A stretch of 62,485 nucleotides of DNA, filler included, from Globobulimina sp. (lineage: Eukaryota), in the NCBI GenBank assembly GCA_003354225.1. It is 40 parts of 40 records of this genome, joined end to end, with 100 filler letters (N's around TTAATTAATTAA, not from the genome) between each part and the next. Parts side by side here need not be neighbours in the genome. Positions count along the whole stretch, not along the records: positions 57,897 to 59,359 come from PIVH01016275.1; 39 more parts are not named here. One strand, 5' to 3'. Shown here piece after piece: positions 4,599 through 59,359 of this stretch. A model generated the notes under the pieces. It was not told the origin of the DNA, made no database searches, and saw only the letters and a list, made by a program, of their open reading frames with translations. The position numbers and the translations under genes are program-made. Position 1 is the first letter of the stretch, and each line of letters begins with the position of its first letter.

Positions 4599-4893
4599 NN
4601 NNNNNNNNNNNNNNNNNNNNNNNNNNNNNNNNNNNNNNNNNNTTAATTAATTAANNNNNNNNNNNNNNNNNNNNNNNNNNNNNNNNNNNNNNNNNNNNAA
4701 TTTATATATGTTTTTTATTTTGAATTTGTATTATAATTAAATAATTAAATAAATTGTTATAGTTTTTTTATTTCTTGTTCATGCCATATATATGGAATGT
4801 GTAGTTTCATGCATGATATATGCGCATCCTTGCACAAAACAAGTACTTTTTGGAGGAAAAGTTTCCGTGTTTCTGTTATTTTTTCGGACTAAC

Positions 4894-6045
4894 ATGAGGT
4901 TTAGGATTGGAACTTTGAATGTTCATTGGGTTGTGCGGCCAAAGGGAATGGATCAATTTGTTAACTTAGTATTTGATAATAAATTGGATATATTGGTGAT
5001 CCAGGAAGGTCAAAGTGATGCAGTGCAGAAGTTTGTGAATAAATTGAATGAAAGTGAGAAAGAACAATCTGTGAATTCGATTTTTAAATGGAGCCATGCA
5101 TCGGCAATGCCATCATTTCTATGTAACTCCATCATATCAAGATATCCCATAATTGAACAACATACGGTATGTTGGGATTGGTTACAATACCAAAAGCATA
5201 AACATGTTGGTTCAAAAGAAAATAGATCTGCTGTTCTGGCAACAATAATGATTAAACAAGACATAAATGACAAAGATGAAGAGATTAAAACGCAACATAT
5301 CAATGATTGTACATGTATGATATCGATAATGTGCACTCATTTGGATCATATTGATGAAGATTGCAGATTGTTGCAAATAAATCATTTTTTGGATAATAAT
5401 TATAAGACACAAAGAAATGATAAAAATAAACAATATCCAGATATATTATGTGGTGATTTTAATAGTTTATTGCAAAGCGATTACACTATAAATGATTGGA
5501 ATAAAATCGCAGATATTCGGAGAAACACTAACTGGGAAACACCAAAAAATGAGTTAATGAGTAAATTGTTGTTAAATGATAATGATAAAATGGGATATTA
5601 TGATACGTTGGAAAGTTCATTGAAACAGACATTTTATGTCGAGAAATATTTAGAAAATGTAAATGATAAAAATAAAATGGAGTTTGCTGAATTTAATGAG
5701 AGAGTAAATCTGCCGAAATGGACAAGTTCCATGGCAAATAATGGTGGAAATGTATTTAATAAGTTTTTTAAAAATATGAATATAAAACATAAAAATAAGA
5801 ATGAGGAAAAAGAGCAAAGTAATGAGTTGGATGGGAAACTGAATGCAATGTTTTTTGAATATTTTAGCAAACGATGGGAAGCAACATGTCGGTTTCATAC
5901 AAGAATTGATTATATATTGGTTCTAAAACATTTATTGTCAAATAATAAATGGAGATTGATAGATTTTGGATTTCAAGATACAATCAAAACAGAGTTGACA
6001 GATCATAAATTATATTGGTGTGAGTTTGAGCTTGAATGCAATTAA
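4894..6045 (+). CDS. Endonuclease/exonuclease/phosphatase (EEP, DNase I-like) family protein
   Basis: TLNVH, LVIQE, CTHLD, LCGDFN, RIDYI and TDH motifs in order; likely start MRFRIGTLNV at 4894. Confidence 0.9.
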   Translation: MRFRIGTLNVHWVVRPKGMDQFVNLVFDNKLDILVIQEGQSDAVQKFVNKLNESEKEQSVNSIFKWSHASAMPSFLCNSIISRYPIIEQHTVCWDWLQYQKHKHVGSKENRSAVLATIMIKQDINDKDEEIKTQHINDCTCMISIMCTHLDHIDEDCRLLQINHFLDNNYKTQRNDKNKQYPDILCGDFNSLLQSDYTINDWNKIADIRRNTNWETPKNELMSKLLLNDNDKMGYYDTLESSLKQTFYVEKYLENVNDKNKMEFAEFNERVNLPKWTSSMANNGGNVFNKFFKNMNIKHKNKNEEKEQSNELDGKLNAMFFEYFSKRWEATCRFHTRIDYILVLKHLLSNNKWRLIDFGFQDTIKTELTDHKLYWCEFELECN

Positions 6046-17222: not shown

Positions 17223-18687
17223 AGATTGTGCCAATATTCATATCCATCCAATACGTACTTAACCATTACGGCGGAGCCAATAGCGACCGCAAAGGCGTTC
17301 TCTTCGAAATCGGCACTGGAGAGGGAAAGTCCGTGGTGGTCATACTGATGGCAGCTATGCAGTGTTTGTTATTTGATCAGGTCATCGACGTAACAACGAG
17401 CCAGACCTTATTGGCGGAGCGAGAAGCTGAAGAAAGCACGGAATTCTTCAAAATGTTAAGTTTAGGAAAGGATGGCGCGGCTTACATTGATCAGAATAGT
17501 TCGGAAGAGACTCGTTATGAAAATTATCGCGCAAAAGTTGTATATTCCACTGCACATAACTACGAATGTGATTTTTTACACAAAGAATCTGGCAAAAAAT
17601 CACAAATTGATTGTCGCGGAAATAGACAGTTTGCAGTAAACATTGTGGACGAAGTGGACAATTCCTTCATTGATTTAGCATTGCAATCCACGCAACTTTC
17701 ATCGCCAACGCCCGGATTCAAAGATATCAACAAAATTTTATTTATCATTTTTTCCAGAATGAGATATGCGATCTGCACATTGGGACGGCCGTACATTGTG
17801 GACGGTTCCTTGTATTTTATGCCTGTTTCAGCCACACACCATCAAATTGACATAATTTCGCAAATCGAACAAAGCATTGCCAAGAAGGTATGCGTTGGGA
17901 CGGTCATTGCAAACCAATTGTTGGTGTATTATAAAGATGAGAAAGAAAAAGCAATCGAGTTACTGAATGAATATGGATTAGTTACCAATGGTTTTAGTTA
18001 TAAGAAGTTAATTGGACGCATAAATCTGTTGAGAAAGGAAAATGGAAAGTTATTCCTGCAGTTAATATCAAATAAGTGCATATTCGGTATTACTACATTG
18101 GTTATGTCGAAAAGAGCGGACGTGACGAGCGGTAATGAAGAGGTTGACTTTTATTGTTATTTTCAAGACGGTGCTATGATAACAGATAATATTTCCGTGT
18201 GCGGCTTTGAAGGCTATGTAGCAATGCAATTAGTGGCCAGTTCTGATATCGATTGGAATCATTTAATGTGTATAATAAAATCCAATGATAATTCGTATGA
18301 GAAGTTAATTAAAGATAATACGCGTTGTGCATTGCATGCATATATTGCGAATTCTGCGGCGTTGCCCTCCTTTGTGAGCTGTGTAGTGACGGATAGATTG
18401 GATATATGGATTGATTCCTGTTGGACGGCGTTATTTTATTACCAAGAAAAAAGGGATTACATTGTGGAAGAGGATAGGAATAAAATATTAACAGTGGACC
18501 GCAATAATACCGGTTGTATTCAGCATAAAATGAAACTTCGTGACGGATTGCACGAATTTCTGCAAATTAAACATGGATTAAAAATGTCTACCATTGGCAC
18601 TGCGGCGAATATTGTCACACATTCGTTTTATTTCAATTTATTTGATCACATTTACGGATTAACGGGCACTTTGGGGGGCGACCGGGA
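17223..18687 (+). CDS. SecA-like DEAD-domain ATPase (divergent, non-canonical), internal fragment
   Basis: EIGTGEGKS (Walker A), DVTTS..LAERE, IVDEVD (Walker B), RDYIV, GLHEFLQIKHGL and GLTGT in SecA order. Confidence 0.88.
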
Positions 18688-18918: not shown

Positions 18919-20252
18919 TTACCACAATGGACACCACCCTAAATATGCTTGCGCCAAATTTTCATGCGACGTAGCTTGTAATATTAATTTATTCACTTGT
19001 TCATTCACAGTATATTCCCTCTTATCCATATCATAAAAATCTCTCCCTTTCAATTTCTGCGACACTCTTTTCAATACATCCACTGCCTTCTCATTCAAAT
19101 CCGAATTGGCGCCGCCCACTAACTGCGATATGAATGTCTTTGATAATAAGGTGCCAACCACTGCCTTCTCTGCAAAATCCACAGCACCCGATTTATTGGA
19201 AGAGTGCAACGAATTGTTATTATTGTTCTGATTGTTTTTATCGTTTTGCTGTTGCTGTTGTTCACCAATTCCTAATCTCCAATTAATCAACGGATCGTAG
19301 GCAAAGGCTTCCAACACTGCTTGGATGGACTCCTTATTCTCGCGAATTAGCCTCATGACCAACTGACAGGTGATCCGAAAGTTGCCCTCAATGCCGGATA
19401 TCTCCATCGCTTCCACCAACATTCTGGTTAAGCGGAAGGGAAACTTTTCGGGGAACTTATCCCTTTGCATCGCCACTTCGAAGCAATCCCCAAAGTCGAT
19501 ATGGATCAATTTGCCGGTAAACCGGTCCAACATGAAATTGCTCGGATGTCTGTCCCCGAGGCCCAGGATATAGCCCACCATCGACATCACCGCCAACGAC
19601 CGCGTATATTCCGTTCTTTTTTCCAACCAAATCTCCGCATTTGCCGATTTCAGCCACAACATTTTCGCCAAATCCTGGCCAGTCGTGTTCCGCAGCGCAT
19701 ATTCAAACACCTCCACTTTTTTCATCACCGGCAACTCGGCAAAGTCCGGCGCCATTTGCAGCATTAAGCGGTTCTCGATGTTGACCACAATCTTCTTGCT
19801 CTCGCGGTAGTCTTTGATCAATGCGTGGATGGTGTCGCAGTTTGGAACCCATTCCAAGATCCCCGTGGTGGGCGACAGCGGTATGATGGCATAGCCGCGA
19901 ATGAAGAGATCCTTTATCTTCGTAGAGATGTTATTGCTGAGCAACGTGTTGACCAATCCAAATAATTGCATCACCCGCTCATCCAAACGCAAATCCTCAT
20001 GGCCTTTCAACAAAAACGTATATTCCAAGCCATTGTTGCCTAAAATGCCCAGTCTCCGCGGTCTTTGCTTGGATTCCATCACTTTCAAAGTCCGCACAAA
20101 TCGATTGATCGATATCGTATCTCCGCGGGTTTTGTGCGCAGCGCTGTACGTTCCGGGCACGGCCAGTTCCAAATTGGCGGCATTTTCCAGATTGGGAGAG
20201 ATGTACTGCAGCTCCAAATAATTCAAGTTTGCCAAATTCTTATTGATATTCC
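18919..20252 (-). CDS. TOR: Target of rapamycin kinase, catalytic plus FATC domains (C-terminal fragment)
   Basis: [57 protein letters not shown] and [18 protein letters not shown]. Confidence 0.98.
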
Positions 20253-31489: not shown

Positions 31490-32772
31490 TCAAATGGTCG
31501 TATAAAAATCATTCAATAATTTCTTAAATTGGATAACAGAAGGAGGAGATTGAACCAGATTTATATTCATCATTGCACATAGTTCATTAATCATATTTGG
31601 CGCACGGTAAGAAAAACTTCTTTTTGCTATTTCTGTTTTAAATGGAGGTAAGGCCAATTTTGGTACTTGAGTAAATCTGGCAGAAGTACGGGTATTACTT
31701 ATAGCAATAGGAAATGTCAAATCAATGAATTCATTATCGACAAAAGTCTTGTATGCCATAATTTCAGTTCTTCGTTTTAATTCTGTATGAGCATCCAACC
31801 AGCCAAGCTTCTTTCTTGATTCGGATGCACGATCATATTTGCGAAGTCCAAACACTAATTTAGCACCAAAGTTTACGGCCCGCACTAACGTTTCTTCCAC
31901 ATAAGACTTTGGTGCTGCATGGACTACAGGGGAGGCATAAAATAGTTTCGGGAGTATCGTTGTTTCAATGGTTTTTACCAAAACTCTGCGCGGTAAGCAG
32001 TATTTGGCTCTTCTAAGTGCAAACAGTTCTTTTTTGCATTTTCCGGAAATAAAATTCAAATGTTGTTTGAAATTTAACTGATCGTCCATAATCACACCCA
32101 AATTCTTTGCTTTTGTAACAATTTCCAGTATTTCTCCATCAATCGAAAGCCCTTGATTAGCAACAACATTTCGTCGGTTTTGACTGGTACCAATGGAAAG
32201 GACTTGGGTTTTACTTCGGTTGTTTTTAAGTCCATTCATGTTGCACCATCTAATGATGTTATGTAGATCATATTCAAGGTTACGGTAGGCTTCATTTGTC
32301 TGTCCTGGTTTGTGTGAAAGACACAGTTGGATGTCATCAGCATATAGGGTAATTTTGCTGTGTTTTATAACTTTAGGGAGGTCGTTGATTGCAATTAAGA
32401 ACAGGAAGGGACCCAGATTCGATCCCTGGGGGACCCCAGTAGTAACAGGTAACATTTTGGAAATTTGGGTCCCAATTTTCACCCTTTGGGATCTATTTTG
32501 AAGATACGATTTGAACCAGTTTAAAGCTGTACCTTGAATTCCGTATCTGGCCATCTTTGCAAGTAGAATGGTATGGACCACACAATCAAAAGCTTTACTC
32601 ATATCCAGCAACACCAAGGTGGACATTAATTTATTTTCCATTGCTGAATATATAGAATCACAAACCTTTAACAGTGCTGTCTCTGTAGATTTTCCACTTA
32701 AAAAACCAAATTGACACTCTGATACAAATTGGACAGAATATGGGCGAATTTGATTGAAAACAAGAAGTTCCA
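31490..32772 (-). mobile_element. Non-LTR retrotransposon reverse transcriptase, 3' end (CR1/L2-like)
   Basis: QFGF, LDMSKAFD, GVPQGSNLGP, YADD, KNLGV and SFSYRAP; a short (TTA)n run follows the stop. Confidence 0.95.
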
Positions 32773-56333: not shown

Positions 56334-57796
56334 TGGTATCAAGAATTAGTCGCTAAAACGACCGATGTAATCAATGAAATGTCAGCGATTTATAAAGCTA
56401 CAAATTGGGGTGGTTCAGTTGGAGGAACCAACAGTATCAGGTATTTTTTTTCCTTTTACAGGTTAGGAATACAAAATAAATGAATAAAAATAAAAAAATA
56501 GTATCGTTTTCGCCGGAATTCATGTAATTTTTGAGTTTACCGGTGATTATTTATCATTGAAGCCAAGAAAATTATATTCAAATTGCCCTTTAAGTAGCAA
56601 TGCCTTTGATGATTCAGATGAGTGCGCCATTGATGGCAATGCTTGGTTAGGTACATGCAAATCGTGGGTGAGCCAATATTTAGACTTCTCGACGTTTGAC
56701 AATGTACAATTTGTGACTGATATGCGGTTTGCATGGACGAGAAGTGGTAGCTCAACCAGCAGAAGTTAAGTGATTCCGTGTGCTTTTGTAATATGTCATA
56801 TGTGCAATTAACATGTAATGTTTTTTGTGTTTTTGGTGTGAAGCTTTGGGATGGGGTTATATAGGAACTGTTTGTGGATCATCATCAGTGGCGGATATCT
56901 CTGTTGTCCCAGAAATGGGCAGTGAAGTCAGAACAATGGCGCATGAATTAGGTACACTCTTTCACTCAAAAAAAAAAAAAAAACTTCGCTTGACTTGCAC
57001 CATGTCTCACATTTTTAAAACGAAGGCCATAATTTTGGAATGCACCATGACGGACAATCTGGTGAAGGTTCATCATGTGCAGCGAACGCAGGCTTAATGG
57101 GCTATAGTGACGGCACAGGATTTAGTTCATGTTCCAAGGCGTCCATGCAAACATTTTTCAACAGTCAAAACGGTTTAACTTGCATTGGTTCAGGCTGGCC
57201 AAGGACTTTCGCCACTAATTATGACGACGGCGCCACAGCCGAACCAACCACACCTCGGCCAACGCCACGTCCAACACCGCGGCCCACACGTGGTCCCACC
57301 CGCGGCGGCCAAACCGCAGAGCCAACTCGAGCGGTTACACCAGGTCCAACCGATGGTGTTACGCCAGGACCCACCCGGAGTCCCGTGGAAAGTGCCGGTT
57401 GCGTCAGAATAAGCGGCATCGATACTAATTATTATGATGGCTCCTATAACGAATTGGCAGAGTTACATAACGGAGCGGCAGTGTATGAATTAAGCTCTCG
57501 TAGCGGACAAACTGTCTACGTTTACAAGCCCTCAACGAATAGCTATTGGAACGGCGTCAATCCCGCCTGGGTCTGGGGTAATTCCATTGGTAGTAATTCT
57601 ATCTCAGTATATTGTGCACAAAGTGACATCATGTCCTGCGGCGGTGAGTTTATGCGGTATACCTCGTCCGGATGGGTTTACTATCCCTCCTCCGCTATAG
57701 ATACGGAGTGTGGCTCTGGTTCCAGTTCTGGCGGAGACGCGTTTGCCTGTCCTGGTATCGATCGTCACGACGTTGATCAGACCCAGGACGATCAGG
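56334..57796 (+). CDS. M12B reprolysin/ADAM-like zinc metalloprotease with Pro/Thr linker (introns 56441-56501, 56765-56843, 56952-57025)
   Basis: Splicing rebuilds AHELGHNFGMHHD, the Met-turn (GLMG) and FSSCS; upstream GWGYIGTVC. Confidence 0.9.
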
Positions 57797-57898
57797 NNNN
57801 NNNNNNNNNNNNNNNNNNNNNNNNNNNNNNNNNNNNNNNNTTAATTAATTAANNNNNNNNNNNNNNNNNNNNNNNNNNNNNNNNNNNNNNNNNNNNCA

Positions 57899-58522
57899 CA
57901 CGAAAGAATACAAAGAGATAACTTGAATGTTATTTTCTTGATTCTGGAGCAAAATTTTGATTTAAGGAGAGATTTATCCGTTGATCAATTGATTGGATTC
58001 CATCGCATTGCCATCAAATATAACTATGATGATAATATAAAGAGGACACAGCACGAAATATGGTCAATTTTGGAGGATATAGATAAAAAGAAAAAAATTA
58101 AATTGAATGTTGTGTCTTATTTCAGATTGAATGGCGAATTACATTCAATTTCCACTGGATATGATGCTGGAGAAAAATGTAAATTTAATTCAAATGATAA
58201 AGTGAGCAGTTTAATGAAACAAATTGATTTCAATATAAATACATCGATTTGCCCAGAATTATCGTCAGAAATTGCGAGACAAACACATTTAAAAAGCCAT
58301 TCAGAAAAGAAAGCATTGGCGATAATGTTGAGGCACTCAGAACAATCAATATCATCAAATGATAAAAATATCAAAATTAAAGTAACAATGAGAATGTGCC
58401 AAGACTGTCATGAATTCTTTTGTCAGGTATCCAAAAAATATAATAAATATACCATTCAATGTGTTGATCCTAAAGGGATCCATAATTTTAAAAATGGTAT
58501 TTGTTATTTATGCAACCATTGA
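57899..58522 (+). CDS. DYW-type cytidine deaminase domain (C-terminus of a probable PPR-DYW protein), 5'-truncated
   Basis: PG-box-like SYFRLNGELH, HSEKKALA, IKIKVTMRMCQDCHEF and D-x3-HNFKNGIC-x2-C. Confidence 0.88.
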   Translation, partial: HERIQRDNLNVIFLILEQNFDLRRDLSVDQLIGFHRIAIKYNYDDNIKRTQHEIWSILEDIDKKKKIKLNVVSYFRLNGELHSISTGYDAGEKCKFNSNDKVSSLMKQIDFNINTSICPELSSEIARQTHLKSHSEKKALAIMLRHSEQSISSNDKNIKIKVTMRMCQDCHEFFCQVSKKYNKYTIQCVDPKGIHNFKNGICYLCNH

Positions 58523-58672
58523 AATATACGCCTTGTGGCAAAGCCTTTCATTGAAACATTCATATCCATCTTTCAAATCTTATTAAAGGATGTTTTCAAA
58601 CTAAAAAGCATCAGATTAACTTTGCGCAACCAAAAATACAAGAATACCAACAAAACATATCACAAACAACAC

Positions 58673-59359
58673 TCAAGATATAAGTTGTTTCATTTCGTTG
58701 TATAATGGTTGATAATTATTTGCTAATGCATATTGTAATGAATTTTTACCATTTACTTTATCCTTTTGTGACAAACATTTTTTAATATCTTCAATATTCA
58801 GATTATTAATTTTACCATACTCACATAACATTTTTAAGATATTAACTCGTGCACATTGCATTTGTGATGCATTTGTTACAGCATTTGACATTACACTTTG
58901 TGATAAACTTAAAAATACATTGTTATATTTACCATCAATTTGTTTACTCATAAATAACAAATTCAAATTCTCCATTTTATTTCCTTTTACATTCTGATTA
59001 AATAAAAATATATCAATTGCTTTATCAAAACAACATCTACATAATAACCACAATATACATTCTGATTTACTTACTGTTAATTCACGTAAAATATGTGTAT
59101 TACAATCAATATAATAATCCATTAAATCACTATCAAATATCAAACCATTTTGCATTAATTCTTGAAACAATTTCAATGTAAATTCTTCAACGCATTCATT
59201 TTGATAAATTGTTTTAAAATGTAATAAACTTAATTGATAAACAAATTGTTGAGTATATTGCTTCCAATCCAATAATTTTAATATTTTAATAATCCATTGT
59301 AATACCATTCGTTTTGTTTTCTCTCGACGAACATTTACTAATTTTGACAACATTTCACT
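58673..59359 (-). CDS. Helical protein C-terminus with an ankyrin-like final repeat
   Basis: KDKVNGKNSLQYALANN; convergent on the DYW gene. Confidence 0.55.
   Translation of the reverse strand, partial: SEMLSKLVNVRREKTKRMVLQWIIKILKLLDWKQYTQQFVYQLSLLHFKTIYQNECVEEFTLKLFQELMQNGLIFDSDLMDYYIDCNTHILRELTVSKSECILWLLCRCCFDKAIDIFLFNQNVKGNKMENLNLLFMSKQIDGKYNNVFLSLSQSVMSNAVTNASQMQCARVNILKMLCEYGKINNLNIEDIKKCLSQKDKVNGKNSLQYALANNYQPLYNEMKQLIS

What the first reader, a model, noticed from the sequence alone, without database searches (positions are those of the whole stretch)
57899..58522. DYW-type cytidine deaminase (RNA-editing enzyme family) in a non-plant, protist-like genome, with a non-DYW tail
Seen: HSEKKALA (58298-58321) supplies the HxE zinc ligand and catalytic Glu, and CQDCH (from 58397) supplies CxxC. 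A PG-box-like SYFRLNGELH and a second-zinc-like HNFKNGICYLC are also present, but the protein ends CNH* rather than CSCxDYW. Known: DYW domains on PPR proteins catalyse organellar C-to-U editing in land plants and occur patchily in other eukaryotes such as Naegleria. Inference: this AT-rich contig, with a convergent ankyrin-like gene, points to an uncharacterised organellar editing system or a repurposed deaminase in the host protist. The region upstream of the PG box does not look like canonical E1/E2 motifs.
Basis: partly seen in the sequence, partly recalled or inferred. Interest (0 to 1): 0.8.

Follow-up and report, generated by a model that had tools for sequence, protein, structure and literature searches.

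The report
Foraminifera-type PPR-DYW RNA-editing deaminase fragment
This is the intact tail end of a plant-like RNA-editing enzyme gene whose closest named relatives come from foraminifera, in a lineage-specific form that lacks the name-giving DYW ending, which hints that these protists may edit their mitochondrial RNA.

Summary
The frame 57899-58522 (+) encodes 207 residues that pass Pfam DYW_deaminase (42 bits, cutoff 24), and every motif sits at the stated coordinates. The window is 40 unrelated ~1.46-kb contigs joined by artificial linkers. The ORF runs off the start of its contig (57897-59359), so about 750-950 upstream residues are missing.

Relatives at 46-60% identity are 680-1150-aa proteins with PPR arrays and a C-terminal DYW domain. 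Every organism-named one is from the foraminifera Nonionella stella or Bolivina argentea. The window sequence sits inside that clade (support 99/96), and grouping it with plant-type sequences is rejected (p-AU 6e-5).

The AlphaFold model (pLDDT 92.8) superposes on a plant-type PPR-DYW/RNA complex from the E motifs to the last residue (Z 18.6). The catalytic Glu and all seven zinc ligands are invariant. The odd tail is a clade trait, not a truncation:
- The end reads G-x-C-x-x-C plus 1-2 residues, not CSCxDYW.
- The conserved Trp is absent.
- The PG dipeptide is absent.
- The plant autoinhibitory Lys is Val.

Most likely role: organellar C-to-U editing factor (inferred, untested). Rhizarian DYW domains are already in print (paradinids 2025; a 2026 survey counts 31). 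I found no foraminiferal report. Verdict: a new variant of a known kind.

The parts
57897..59359 (.). The 1463-bp contig that holds the finding. It is flanked by artificial N/TTAATTAATTAA linkers. GC 0.267.
57899..58522 (+). 5'-open ORF of 207 codons plus a TGA stop. It is the C-terminal part of a PPR-DYW-type protein (P0001).
57899..58096 (+). Residues 1-66: helical hairpins (H6-19, H22-25, H28-40, H45-65). They are structurally equivalent to the end of E1 plus E2 of plant PPR-DYW proteins.
   Evidence: Model. VIA-align model 4-207 against 9kfx_A 420-609, Z 18.6. E1/E2 residue numbers of 9kfx. hhalign. No Pfam E-motif.
58115..58159 (+). PG-box-like beta-hairpin SYFRLNGELHSISTG (residues 73-87). 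The P-G dipeptide itself is replaced (K-L-N-V here, K-[TS]-N-V in relatives).
58142..58297 (+). 52-residue insert H82-S133 in the place of the DYW-specific gating domain (OTP86 H837-G891).
58298..58306 (+). H134-S-E136: a Zn1 ligand and the catalytic glutamate.
   Evidence: Invariant in 59 of 59 aligned sequences.
58382..58384 (+). V162, at the position of the plant autoinhibitory lysine (OTP86 K915).
   Evidence: Alignment to 7o4e. Column make-up V 35, K 14 of 59. Role of K915.
58397..58411 (+). C167-Q-D-C170-H171: two Zn1 ligands and the first Zn2 ligand.
58481..58513 (+). H195-N-F-K-N-G-I-C202-Y-L-C205: the remaining Zn2 ligands, with C-x-x-C spacing where plants have C-x-C.
58514..58522 (+). 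Tail N-H followed by a TGA stop. There is no D-Y-W and no Trp.
58673..59359 (-). Convergent neighbouring ORF (226-228 codons). It is open at the contig end and its function is unresolved. It is not part of the deaminase gene.

Best explanation
The ORF is the last ~200 residues of a nuclear gene for a PPR-DYW protein. It comprises an E-motif-like helical linker and a complete DYW-type zinc cytidine deaminase domain. It belongs to a subfamily whose only organism-named members are foraminiferal (Rhizaria).

Inferred mechanism, by analogy with plant and heterolobosean PPR-DYW factors:
1. The missing N-terminal part carries an import signal and a PPR array that binds a specific organellar (mitochondrial) RNA just 5' of a target cytidine.
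2. The E-like hairpins and the DYW domain form the pocket for the nucleotides around the site.
3. Zn1, held by H134, C167 and C170, activates water, and E136 shuttles the proton, turning C into U.
4. A second, structural zinc held by H171, H195, C202 and C205 staples the C-terminal strand to the catalytic helix.

In this subfamily the last two cysteines are spaced C-x-x-C, and the chain stops 1-2 residues later. The DYW tripeptide with its Trp is gone. The plant autoinhibitory Lys is Val, so regulation of the 'gate' probably differs.

Shown here: family membership, fold, conservation of all ligand residues, PPR arrays in relatives, and phylogenetic placement. Inferred: zinc binding, catalytic activity, organellar location, C-to-U editing, and that the host is a foraminiferan.
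For: - Pfam DYW_deaminase scores 42 bits against a cutoff of 24.
- The AF2 model has pLDDT 92.8.
- VIA-align scores: Z 18.6 (rmsd 3.4, 182 aligned, model 4-207) to the synthetic PPR-DYW/RNA complex 9kfx; Z 15.8 and 15.3 to the OTP86 DYW domain; 15.1 to DYW1; 12.3 to SsdA; 7.8 or less for other deaminases. Foldseek agrees.
- H134, E136, C167, C170, H171, H195, C202 and C205 are invariant in 59 of 59 sequences. They map one-to-one onto the OTP86 Zn1 and Zn2 ligands and E894 (passages read).
- Precomputed Pfam lists PPR families in 10 of 13 longer relatives.
- My own scan finds PPR above the curated cutoff in 5 of 10 relatives.
- hhalign of foram-type against plant-type full-length profiles gives probability 100%, E 1.8e-57, 561 columns.
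- Relatives align to the window from their residues ~755-960 onward.
- 11 of 30 looked-up relatives are named N. stella or B. argentea. None of the 30 carries another organism's name.
- In the tree, the window lies in a 19-row clade with 8 named foraminiferal rows, support 99/96.
- All 5 differences in a related 282-nt contig over the deaminase core are third-codon positions, and 4 are synonymous. That contig's depth is only 2.8.
- The DYW region has 0 differences in contigs of runs from two studies.
- Several full-length relatives start with basic, acid-poor N-termini, for example P0016 with 7 K+R and 0 D+E in its first 45 residues.
Against: - The gene is cut at the contig end, so PPRs and a targeting signal are not seen for this copy.
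- No other contig of the window matches PPR arrays of nine full-length relatives at E<=1e-2.
- The terminal Trp is absent from the whole clade. Takenaka et al. report it as essential in DYW1 and PpPPR65.
- 4 of 10 scanned relatives (ENA proteins of 489-528 aa) show no Pfam PPR.
- No organellar DNA/RNA comparison exists for any foraminiferan in what I could search.
- In Naegleria and Acrasis, DYW proteins far outnumber known editing sites, so other roles are possible.
- The host is unverified. No genome is held. GC3 of ORFs on other contigs ranges from 0.15 to 0.60, so the assembly may be mixed. A TOR-kinase marker gave no taxonomic signal.
Confidence: 0.65

Rival explanations
1. It is a genuine PPR-DYW protein whose job is not C-to-U editing. 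It might act in RNA cleavage, stabilisation or splicing, or work outside the organelle, with the deaminase fold retained.
For: - In Acrasis (12 DYW proteins, 2 sites) and Naegleria (11 proteins, 2 sites) the authors propose other roles (passages read).
- The Trp that is essential for editing in two plant factors is missing.
- No editing has been reported for foraminifera in my searches.
Against: The catalytic Glu and all Zn1 ligands are invariant in 59 of 59 sequences, including the whole CxxC clade. That is hard to explain without selection on catalysis.
Confidence: 0.15
2. The contig and the EukProt relatives come from an organism that travels with foraminifera (prey, symbiont or parasite) or from another protist lineage, not from a foraminiferal nucleus.
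For: - The assembly looks heterogeneous: GC3 runs from 0.15 to 0.60 among ORFs, and a bacterial or plastid-type SecA_DEAD ORF sits on another contig.
- The window's organism could not be identified.
Against: - The family appears in two different foraminiferal species' EukProt sets, with nine looked-up entries in N. stella alone.
- The window groups with the foraminiferal rows.
- A plant origin is rejected: ΔlnL 133, p-AU 6e-5.
Confidence: 0.12
3. It is an inactive relic. The loss of the DYW tripeptide and the altered zinc knuckle destroyed catalysis, and the domain now serves only as a structural or RNA-binding module, like plant E+ or truncated forms that need a partner.
For: - Trp960 and an intact DYW motif matter for stability and activity in plants.
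- The P-G dipeptide and K915 are also changed.
Against: - All eight catalytic or ligand residues are invariant.
- The model is confident to the last residues (block pLDDT 91-98 from residue 161).
- The CxxC end is shared by 26 clusters and arose once on the tree, which indicates a stable, selected form.
Confidence: 0.08
4. It is a bacterial-type polymorphic toxin deaminase (SsdA-like) acquired by a eukaryote or carried by a contaminating bacterium.
For: SsdA is found by sequence (E 1.8e-4) and by fold (Z 12.3). The Atlas feature search lists bacterial toxin-deaminase clusters at a score of 0.77, which is a lead only.
Against: - Plant DYW structures score clearly higher (Z 15-18.6), and the match includes the E-motif linker.
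- Close relatives are PPR fusions of 680-1150 aa.
- The contig is AT-rich with eukaryote-like neighbours.
Confidence: 0.02

Closest known systems
Land-plant PPR-DYW editing factors (OTP86, DYW1, PpPPR56/65; structures 7o4e/7o4f, 7w86, 9kfx)
   Same: - The same Pfam family and the same fold, including the gating-domain-length insert and an E2-like linker.
- The same HxE...CxDCH signature and the same four Zn2 ligand residues.
- PPR arrays in full-length relatives.
   Different: - No DYW tripeptide and no Trp.
- The last two Cys are spaced CxxC, not CxC.
- No P-G dipeptide at the PG box.
- Val in place of the autoinhibitory Lys915.
- E motifs are not recognised by Pfam.
- It lies across a 98-supported branch from the plant-type clade.
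Protist, fungal and rotifer PPR-DYW proteins (Naegleria, Acrasis, Physarum, Acanthamoeba, Malawimonas, bdelloid rotifers, Agaricales; paradinid Rhizaria)
   Same: Non-plant PPR-DYW families with lineage-specific expansion. They are linked to mitochondrial C-to-U editing in Naegleria, Acrasis and paradinids (passages read).
   Different: - None of the passages I read names Foraminifera.
- The Acrasis proteins are said to keep the PG box.
- Paradinid and fungal domains share a deletion of their own.
- I could not place those named sequences in my tree, because the libraries gave no names for them.
The 31 rhizarian DYW domains of the 2026 MBE survey (PMC13386178)
   Same: These are DYW domains found in Rhizaria. 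The authors note that the PG box and the DYW tripeptide vary in non-plants (section 7 read).
   Different: The species and sequences are only in supplementary tables, which I could not open. Whether foraminifera or this CxxC form are among them is unknown to me.
SsdA / BaDTF2 bacterial toxin deaminases (7jtu, 9c63)
   Same: A related deaminase core, with a similar C-terminal region.
   Different: They score lower (Z 12 against 15-18.6). They have no PPR or E linker. They are secreted toxins rather than RNA-guided editing factors.

Membership tests
DYW deaminase domain (Pfam PF14432) | Profile match above the curated gathering score | tested here: met
   42 bits against a cutoff of 24, E 8.2e-11, residues 126-203.
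DYW deaminase domain | Catalytic zinc signature HxE(x)nCxxC (OTP86 H892, E894, C920, C923) | tested here: met
   H134, E136, C167 and C170 are present and invariant in 59 of 59 sequences.
DYW deaminase domain | Four ligands for the second, structural zinc (OTP86 H924, H947, C954, C956) | tested here: met
   H171, H195, C202 and C205 are present and invariant in 59 of 59 sequences, but spaced CxxC instead of CxC. Metal binding itself was not testable.
DYW deaminase domain | C-terminal D-Y-W tripeptide, especially the conserved Trp (OTP86 W960) | tested here: not met
   The protein ends C-N-H. Of the 26 CxxC-type relatives, 13 have one residue after the last Cys and 4 have two.
DYW deaminase domain | PG box (PGxSWIEVxGxxHxF) | tested here: inconclusive
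   The hairpin S-Y-F-R-L-N-G-E-L-H-S-I aligns with the plant box and forms two strands in the model. The P-G dipeptide is absent here and in the clade. The consensus is quoted.
DYW deaminase domain | Gating domain inserted in the deaminase fold | tested here: met
   A 52-residue insert H82-S133 is present. 125 residues of the 136-residue OTP86 chain superpose at Z 15.8 over model 70-207.
DYW deaminase domain | DYW-specific autoinhibitory lysine (OTP86 K915) | tested here: not met
   It aligns with V162. The column is V in 35 and K in 14 of 59 sequences.
PPR-DYW editing factor | PPR array N-terminal to the DYW domain on the same polypeptide | tested here: inconclusive
   The contig ends 207 codons before the stop. 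No extension was found in laid contigs or metagenome scans. 10 of 13 longer relatives carry PPR families, and 5 of 10 do in my own scan.
PPR-DYW editing factor | E1/E2 helical motifs linking PPRs and DYW | tested here: inconclusive
   No Pfam E-motif appears at E<=1 or in 10 relatives. Model residues 4-66 superpose on 9kfx 420-474. hhalign aligns the stretch with the plant E2 consensus at low column confidence.
PPR-DYW editing factor | Organellar targeting and C-to-U editing of organellar transcripts in the host | not testable with these tools
   The N-terminus is missing. No organellar DNA/RNA pair was available, and no RNA holder was listed.
SsdA-like bacterial toxin deaminase | Delivery or toxin-module architecture, and a closest fold match to SsdA | tested here: not met
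   Relatives are PPR fusions. SsdA scores Z 12.3, below plant DYW at Z 15-18.6.
DYW:KP (reverse, U-to-C) variant of hornworts, lycophytes and ferns | KP-type PG box and its own C-terminal signature (recalled, and mentioned) | not tested

The most novel reading that the evidence does not exclude
Foraminifera carry an expanded, previously undescribed subclass of PPR-DYW editing enzymes. The structural zinc is closed by a C-x-x-C knuckle, and the DYW tripeptide, the essential Trp and the autoinhibitory Lys are dispensable. On this reading, foraminiferal mitochondrial transcripts undergo substantial, so far unnoticed C-to-U editing by a deaminase that is regulated differently from, or less tightly gated than, the plant one.
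Probability: 0.3. Interest if true: 0.65.

Novelty: new variant of a known kind. Interest (0 to 1): 0.5.

Why it matters
If these proteins edit mitochondrial RNA, the protein sequences inferred from foraminiferal mitochondrial DNA would be partly wrong at edited sites. That includes the COI barcodes and the recently published retarian mitogenomes. Oddities such as the conserved cox1 frameshift in Miliolida show that post-transcriptional fixes do occur there.

For the enzymology, a natural DYW domain that keeps all catalytic and zinc ligands while lacking three plant hallmarks is a ready-made test of what those elements do. The three are the Trp, the C-x-C spacing and Lys915. It could also give a shorter or differently regulated module for designer PPR editors.

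It also adds a data point to the debate on whether non-plant DYW genes spread by horizontal transfer.

Tried and rejected
- Whole-genome tools: no genome is held for this window. Paralogue counts and organelle contigs were therefore out of reach.
- Extending the gene 5': laid contigs begin at 57941 (X1) and 57968 (X2), so no extension was found. A single-protein metagenome scan found no relative. The alignment scan gave 22 loci. The best (L001, 67% identity) is itself cut at its contig start, and L002 is a CSC-type relative.
- Expression: no RNA holder is listed for the contig. Runs X6 and X7 are only guessed to be RNA, so nothing is claimed about transcription.
- Organism identification: a TOR-kinase ORF (18922-20250, -) gave 54-60% identity to eukaryotes of all kinds among the full-coverage hits.
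- Earlier notes of this scan: nothing was found by place or by sequence.
- Atlas on P0001: the best score was 0.77, to bacterial deaminase clusters, which is a lead only.
- Downstream ORF: no Pfam or NCBIfam family was found. Atlas recognition was 1937, below the 2300 mark, with 0.95-0.97 hits to bacterial clusters, some carrying Ank_2. The single-sequence AF2 model was unusable at pLDDT 42.8, so no fold search was run. 'Ankyrin-like' is neither confirmed nor excluded.
- A badly posed tree test: forcing all CxxC rows against all other rows was rejected (p 2.9e-9). The cause was that fragments with unreadable ends sit inside the clade. With those 6 rows left free, the 28 CxxC rows are already one side of a branch against the 21 CxC rows (93/87).
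- Literature:
  - Searches for 'DYW'+'foraminifera' (2 papers), 'DYW'+'Reticulomyxa' (1), 'pentatricopeptide'+'foraminifera' (13; one listed, none on the topic by title or abstract), 'PPR-DYW'+'Retaria' (0) and 'Nonionella'+'PPR' (1, unrelated) found no report of foraminiferal PPR-DYW.
  - One search was too loose and uninformative.
  - The 2013 survey (PMC3858438) is not held.
  - Supplementary tables of PMC13386178 could not be opened and may list foraminiferal sequences.

Full report
**What the window is.** The 62,485-base window is not one stretch of genome. It is 40 contigs of 1463-1466 bp, sorted by length and joined by N44-TTAATTAATTAA-N44 linkers. The finding lies in contig 57897-59359 (GC 0.267). 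No whole genome is held for the window. ORFs on other contigs differ widely in third-position GC, from 0.15 to 0.60, while the DYW ORF is at 0.28. Neighbouring contigs therefore say little about this one, and the assembly may hold more than one organism.

**The observation.** The frame from 57899 is open from the contig's first bases to a TGA at 58520-58522 and gives 207 residues (P0001).
- Pfam DYW_deaminase matches at 42 bits against a cutoff of 24, E 8.2e-11. NCBIfam has nothing.
- Against PDB sequences, the best hit is the OTP86 DYW domain (E 7e-6, query 73-203). The next hits are the bacterial toxin deaminase SsdA, DYW1 and a synthetic PPR-DYW.

**Relatives and architecture.**
- The word-indexed search found 5 relatives of similar length and 13 longer ones, mostly 46-60% identical. 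Ten of the 13 longer ones (681-1151 aa) have precomputed PPR families plus a C-terminal DYW domain.
- In my own Pfam scan of 10 relatives, PPR families pass their cutoffs in 5. One further protein (P0040) has a sub-threshold PPR match. Four ENA proteins of 489-528 aa show only the DYW domain. No E-motif family is called in any of them.
- The exhaustive HMMER search of 1.84 billion representatives found 123 proteins at E<=1e-3, 50 at E<=1e-10 and 16 at E<=1e-30.
- Local tblastn of nine full-length relatives against the window hits only this locus. The hits start from the relatives' residues ~755-960, so about 750-950 residues are missing upstream.
- Profile-profile comparison of foram-type and plant-type full-length alignments gives probability 100%, E 1.8e-57 over 561 columns.

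**Whose gene?**
- Of 30 relatives looked up by exact sequence, 11 carry EukProt accessions of the foraminifera Nonionella stella (9) or Bolivina argentea (2).
- 17 have no name (ENA or Logan).
- 2 are JGI 'pentatricopeptide repeat protein' entries of the plant-like kind.
- I take the EukProt sets to be transcriptome-derived. That is from recall, not from a call.

**The tree.** I built a tree from 55 of the 137 proteins then in hand.
- I kept only rows that cover nearly the whole 141-residue domain, and dropped one duplicate.
- P0014, which I did not look up, was labelled Nonionella because its domain is identical to that of P0013, which I did look up.
- The window sequence falls in a clade of 19 rows: 8 named foraminiferal, 9 unnamed, 1 fragment and itself. 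Support is 99% ultrafast bootstrap and 96% SH-aLRT.
- A tree forcing the window together with the 11 plant-type DYW-ending rows is worse by 133 log-likelihood units (p-AU 6e-5).
Still, the host is a foraminiferan only by this family's own evidence.

**The tail is a clade character.** I classified the ends of the 123 exhaustive hits.

| End type | Number of 123 |
|---|---|
| G-x-C-x-x-C | 26 |
| C-x-C | 68 |
| Other | 9 |
| Too fragmentary to read | 20 |

- Among ranks 1-25, all 19 readable ends are CxxC.
- From rank 76 on, no end is CxxC: 38 are CxC, many of them CSCxDYW, and the other 10 are of another kind or unreadable.
- After the last Cys, 13 of the 26 CxxC proteins have one residue and 4 have two, like the window's N-H.
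- On the tree, the 28 CxxC rows form one side of a branch against the 21 CxC rows (93/87), which is a single change.
- One N. stella protein (P0074) has a CxC end, so foraminifera are not uniform in this.

**Structure.**
- With a 59-sequence alignment, AlphaFold2 gives pLDDT 92.8 and pTM 0.84.
- The model has four helices (residues 6-65), a beta-hairpin at the PG-box position (72-85), a 52-residue insert, the HxE helix (135-149), the CxxC helix (168-180) and the closing strands.
- Foldseek's best match is the synthetic PPR-DYW/RNA complex 9kfx (E 2e-10), followed by OTP86, SsdA and DYW1.
- VIA-align gives Z 18.6 (rmsd 3.4, 182 residues, model 4-207 against chain 420-609) for 9kfx, 15.8 and 15.3 for OTP86, 15.1 for DYW1, 12.3 for SsdA and 7.8 or less for all other deaminases.
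- In 9kfx, E1 and E2 span about residues 408-474 (passages).

**Residue map.** The reference is Takenaka et al. 2021 (PMC7611903, passages read).

| OTP86 element | Window equivalent | Status |
|---|---|---|
| Zn1 ligands H892, C920, C923 | H134, C167, C170 | Invariant in 59 of 59 |
| Catalytic E894 | E136 | Invariant in 59 of 59 |
| Zn2 ligands H924, H947, C954, C956 | H171, H195, C202, C205 | Invariant in 59 of 59 |
| W960 (flanks Zn2; essential in DYW1 and PpPPR65) | none | Absent |
| K915 (DYW-specific lysine that pairs with E894 in the autoinhibited state) | V162 | Column is V in 35 and K in 14 of 59 |
| PG dipeptide | K-L-N-V here, K-[TS]-N-V in relatives | Replaced |

The invariance counts come, the K915 alignment, and the PG replacement.

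**Is the gene alive?**
- Contigs of runs from two studies carry 57968-58548 with no difference. The best holder may be the source sample, so this is at most one independent confirmation.
- A 282-nt contig from a third study differs at 5 places, all of them third-codon positions. Four are synonymous and one is M106I. Its depth is only 2.8.
- Short diverged pieces matching 58233-58270 in X1 and X2 look like paralogues.
- The convergent neighbour shows 13 synonymous and 10 non-synonymous differences to contigs that run about 630 nt beyond the contig end, so that gene is longer than 228 codons.

**What is known.**
- PPR-DYW proteins outside plants are established for Naegleria, Acrasis, Physarum, Acanthamoeba, Malawimonas, bdelloid rotifers and some fungi (passages).
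- In Rhizaria, a 2025 paper reports PPR-DYW with C-to-U and A-to-I editing in paradinids. It states that C-to-U editing had never been reported in rhizarians before (passages).
- A 2026 survey counts 31 rhizarian DYW domains and remarks that the PG box and tripeptide vary in non-plants (section 7 read). The species are only in supplements that I could not open.
- The retarian mitogenome paper does not mention PPR proteins. It notes a conserved cox1 frameshift and a split nad1 (passages).
- My searches found no report of foraminiferal PPR-DYW.

**Verdict.** This is a real, intact 3' part of a PPR-DYW gene of a foraminifera-associated subfamily with a distinctive ending. It most likely encodes an organellar C-to-U editing factor, but catalysis, location and targets are untested. 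It is a new variant of a known kind, of moderate interest.

Noticed in passing
whole window; linkers e.g. 57797-57896: The window is 40 contigs of 1463-1466 bp, sorted by length and joined by N44-TTAATTAATTAA-N44 linkers. ORFs or 'genes' that appear to cross these joins are artefacts.
   Followed up: yes
17225-18685 (+): A 487-codon ORF fills a whole contig and matches the SecA DEAD-like domain (94.9 bits), with the match spread over residues 22-482. SecA is a bacterial or plastid-type protein, so this may be a contaminant, an organelle-derived gene or a transfer.
   Followed up: no
18922-20250 (-): This is the C-terminal PI3/PI4-kinase plus FATC end of a TOR-type kinase. It is 54-60% identical to TORs from all eukaryote groups among the full-coverage hits. 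Its GC3 is 0.605, very unlike the DYW contig's 0.28.
   Followed up: partly
31493-32770 (-) and 4753-6042 (+): A reverse-transcriptase ORF (RVT_1, 90.7 bits) and an endonuclease/exonuclease/phosphatase ORF (24.8 bits) lie on separate contigs. They are probably pieces of non-LTR retrotransposons.
   Followed up: no
56825-57796 (+): '...MAHELG' is in one frame and 'HNFGMHHDG...' in another about 30-60 bases on. Read from recall, this looks like a metzincin zinc motif split by a short intron or frameshift. A Pro/Thr-rich linker (TPRPTPRPTPRPT) follows.
   Followed up: no
58613-59359 (-): Contigs of two runs from a third study cover the convergent neighbour at about 96.5% identity. They stop 56-60 nt past its stop codon and run about 630 nt beyond the contig's end, so this gene is longer than the 228 codons seen here.
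   Followed up: partly
58233-58270: Short contig pieces in runs X1 and X2 match only this conserved stretch, with 3-4 differences, and then diverge. One loose end reads like another DYW domain. These are likely paralogues in the same samples.
   Followed up: partly
L002:397-1927: A metagenome relative with a C-S-C-S-C-P end has its helical-repeat part split into two ORFs (397-906 and 953-1927). This suggests a short intron or a frameshift.
   Followed up: no
P0074 (N. stella, 902 aa): One Nonionella DYW protein has a C-x-C end with a long basic tail, so foraminifera seem to hold more than one DYW subtype.
   Followed up: no
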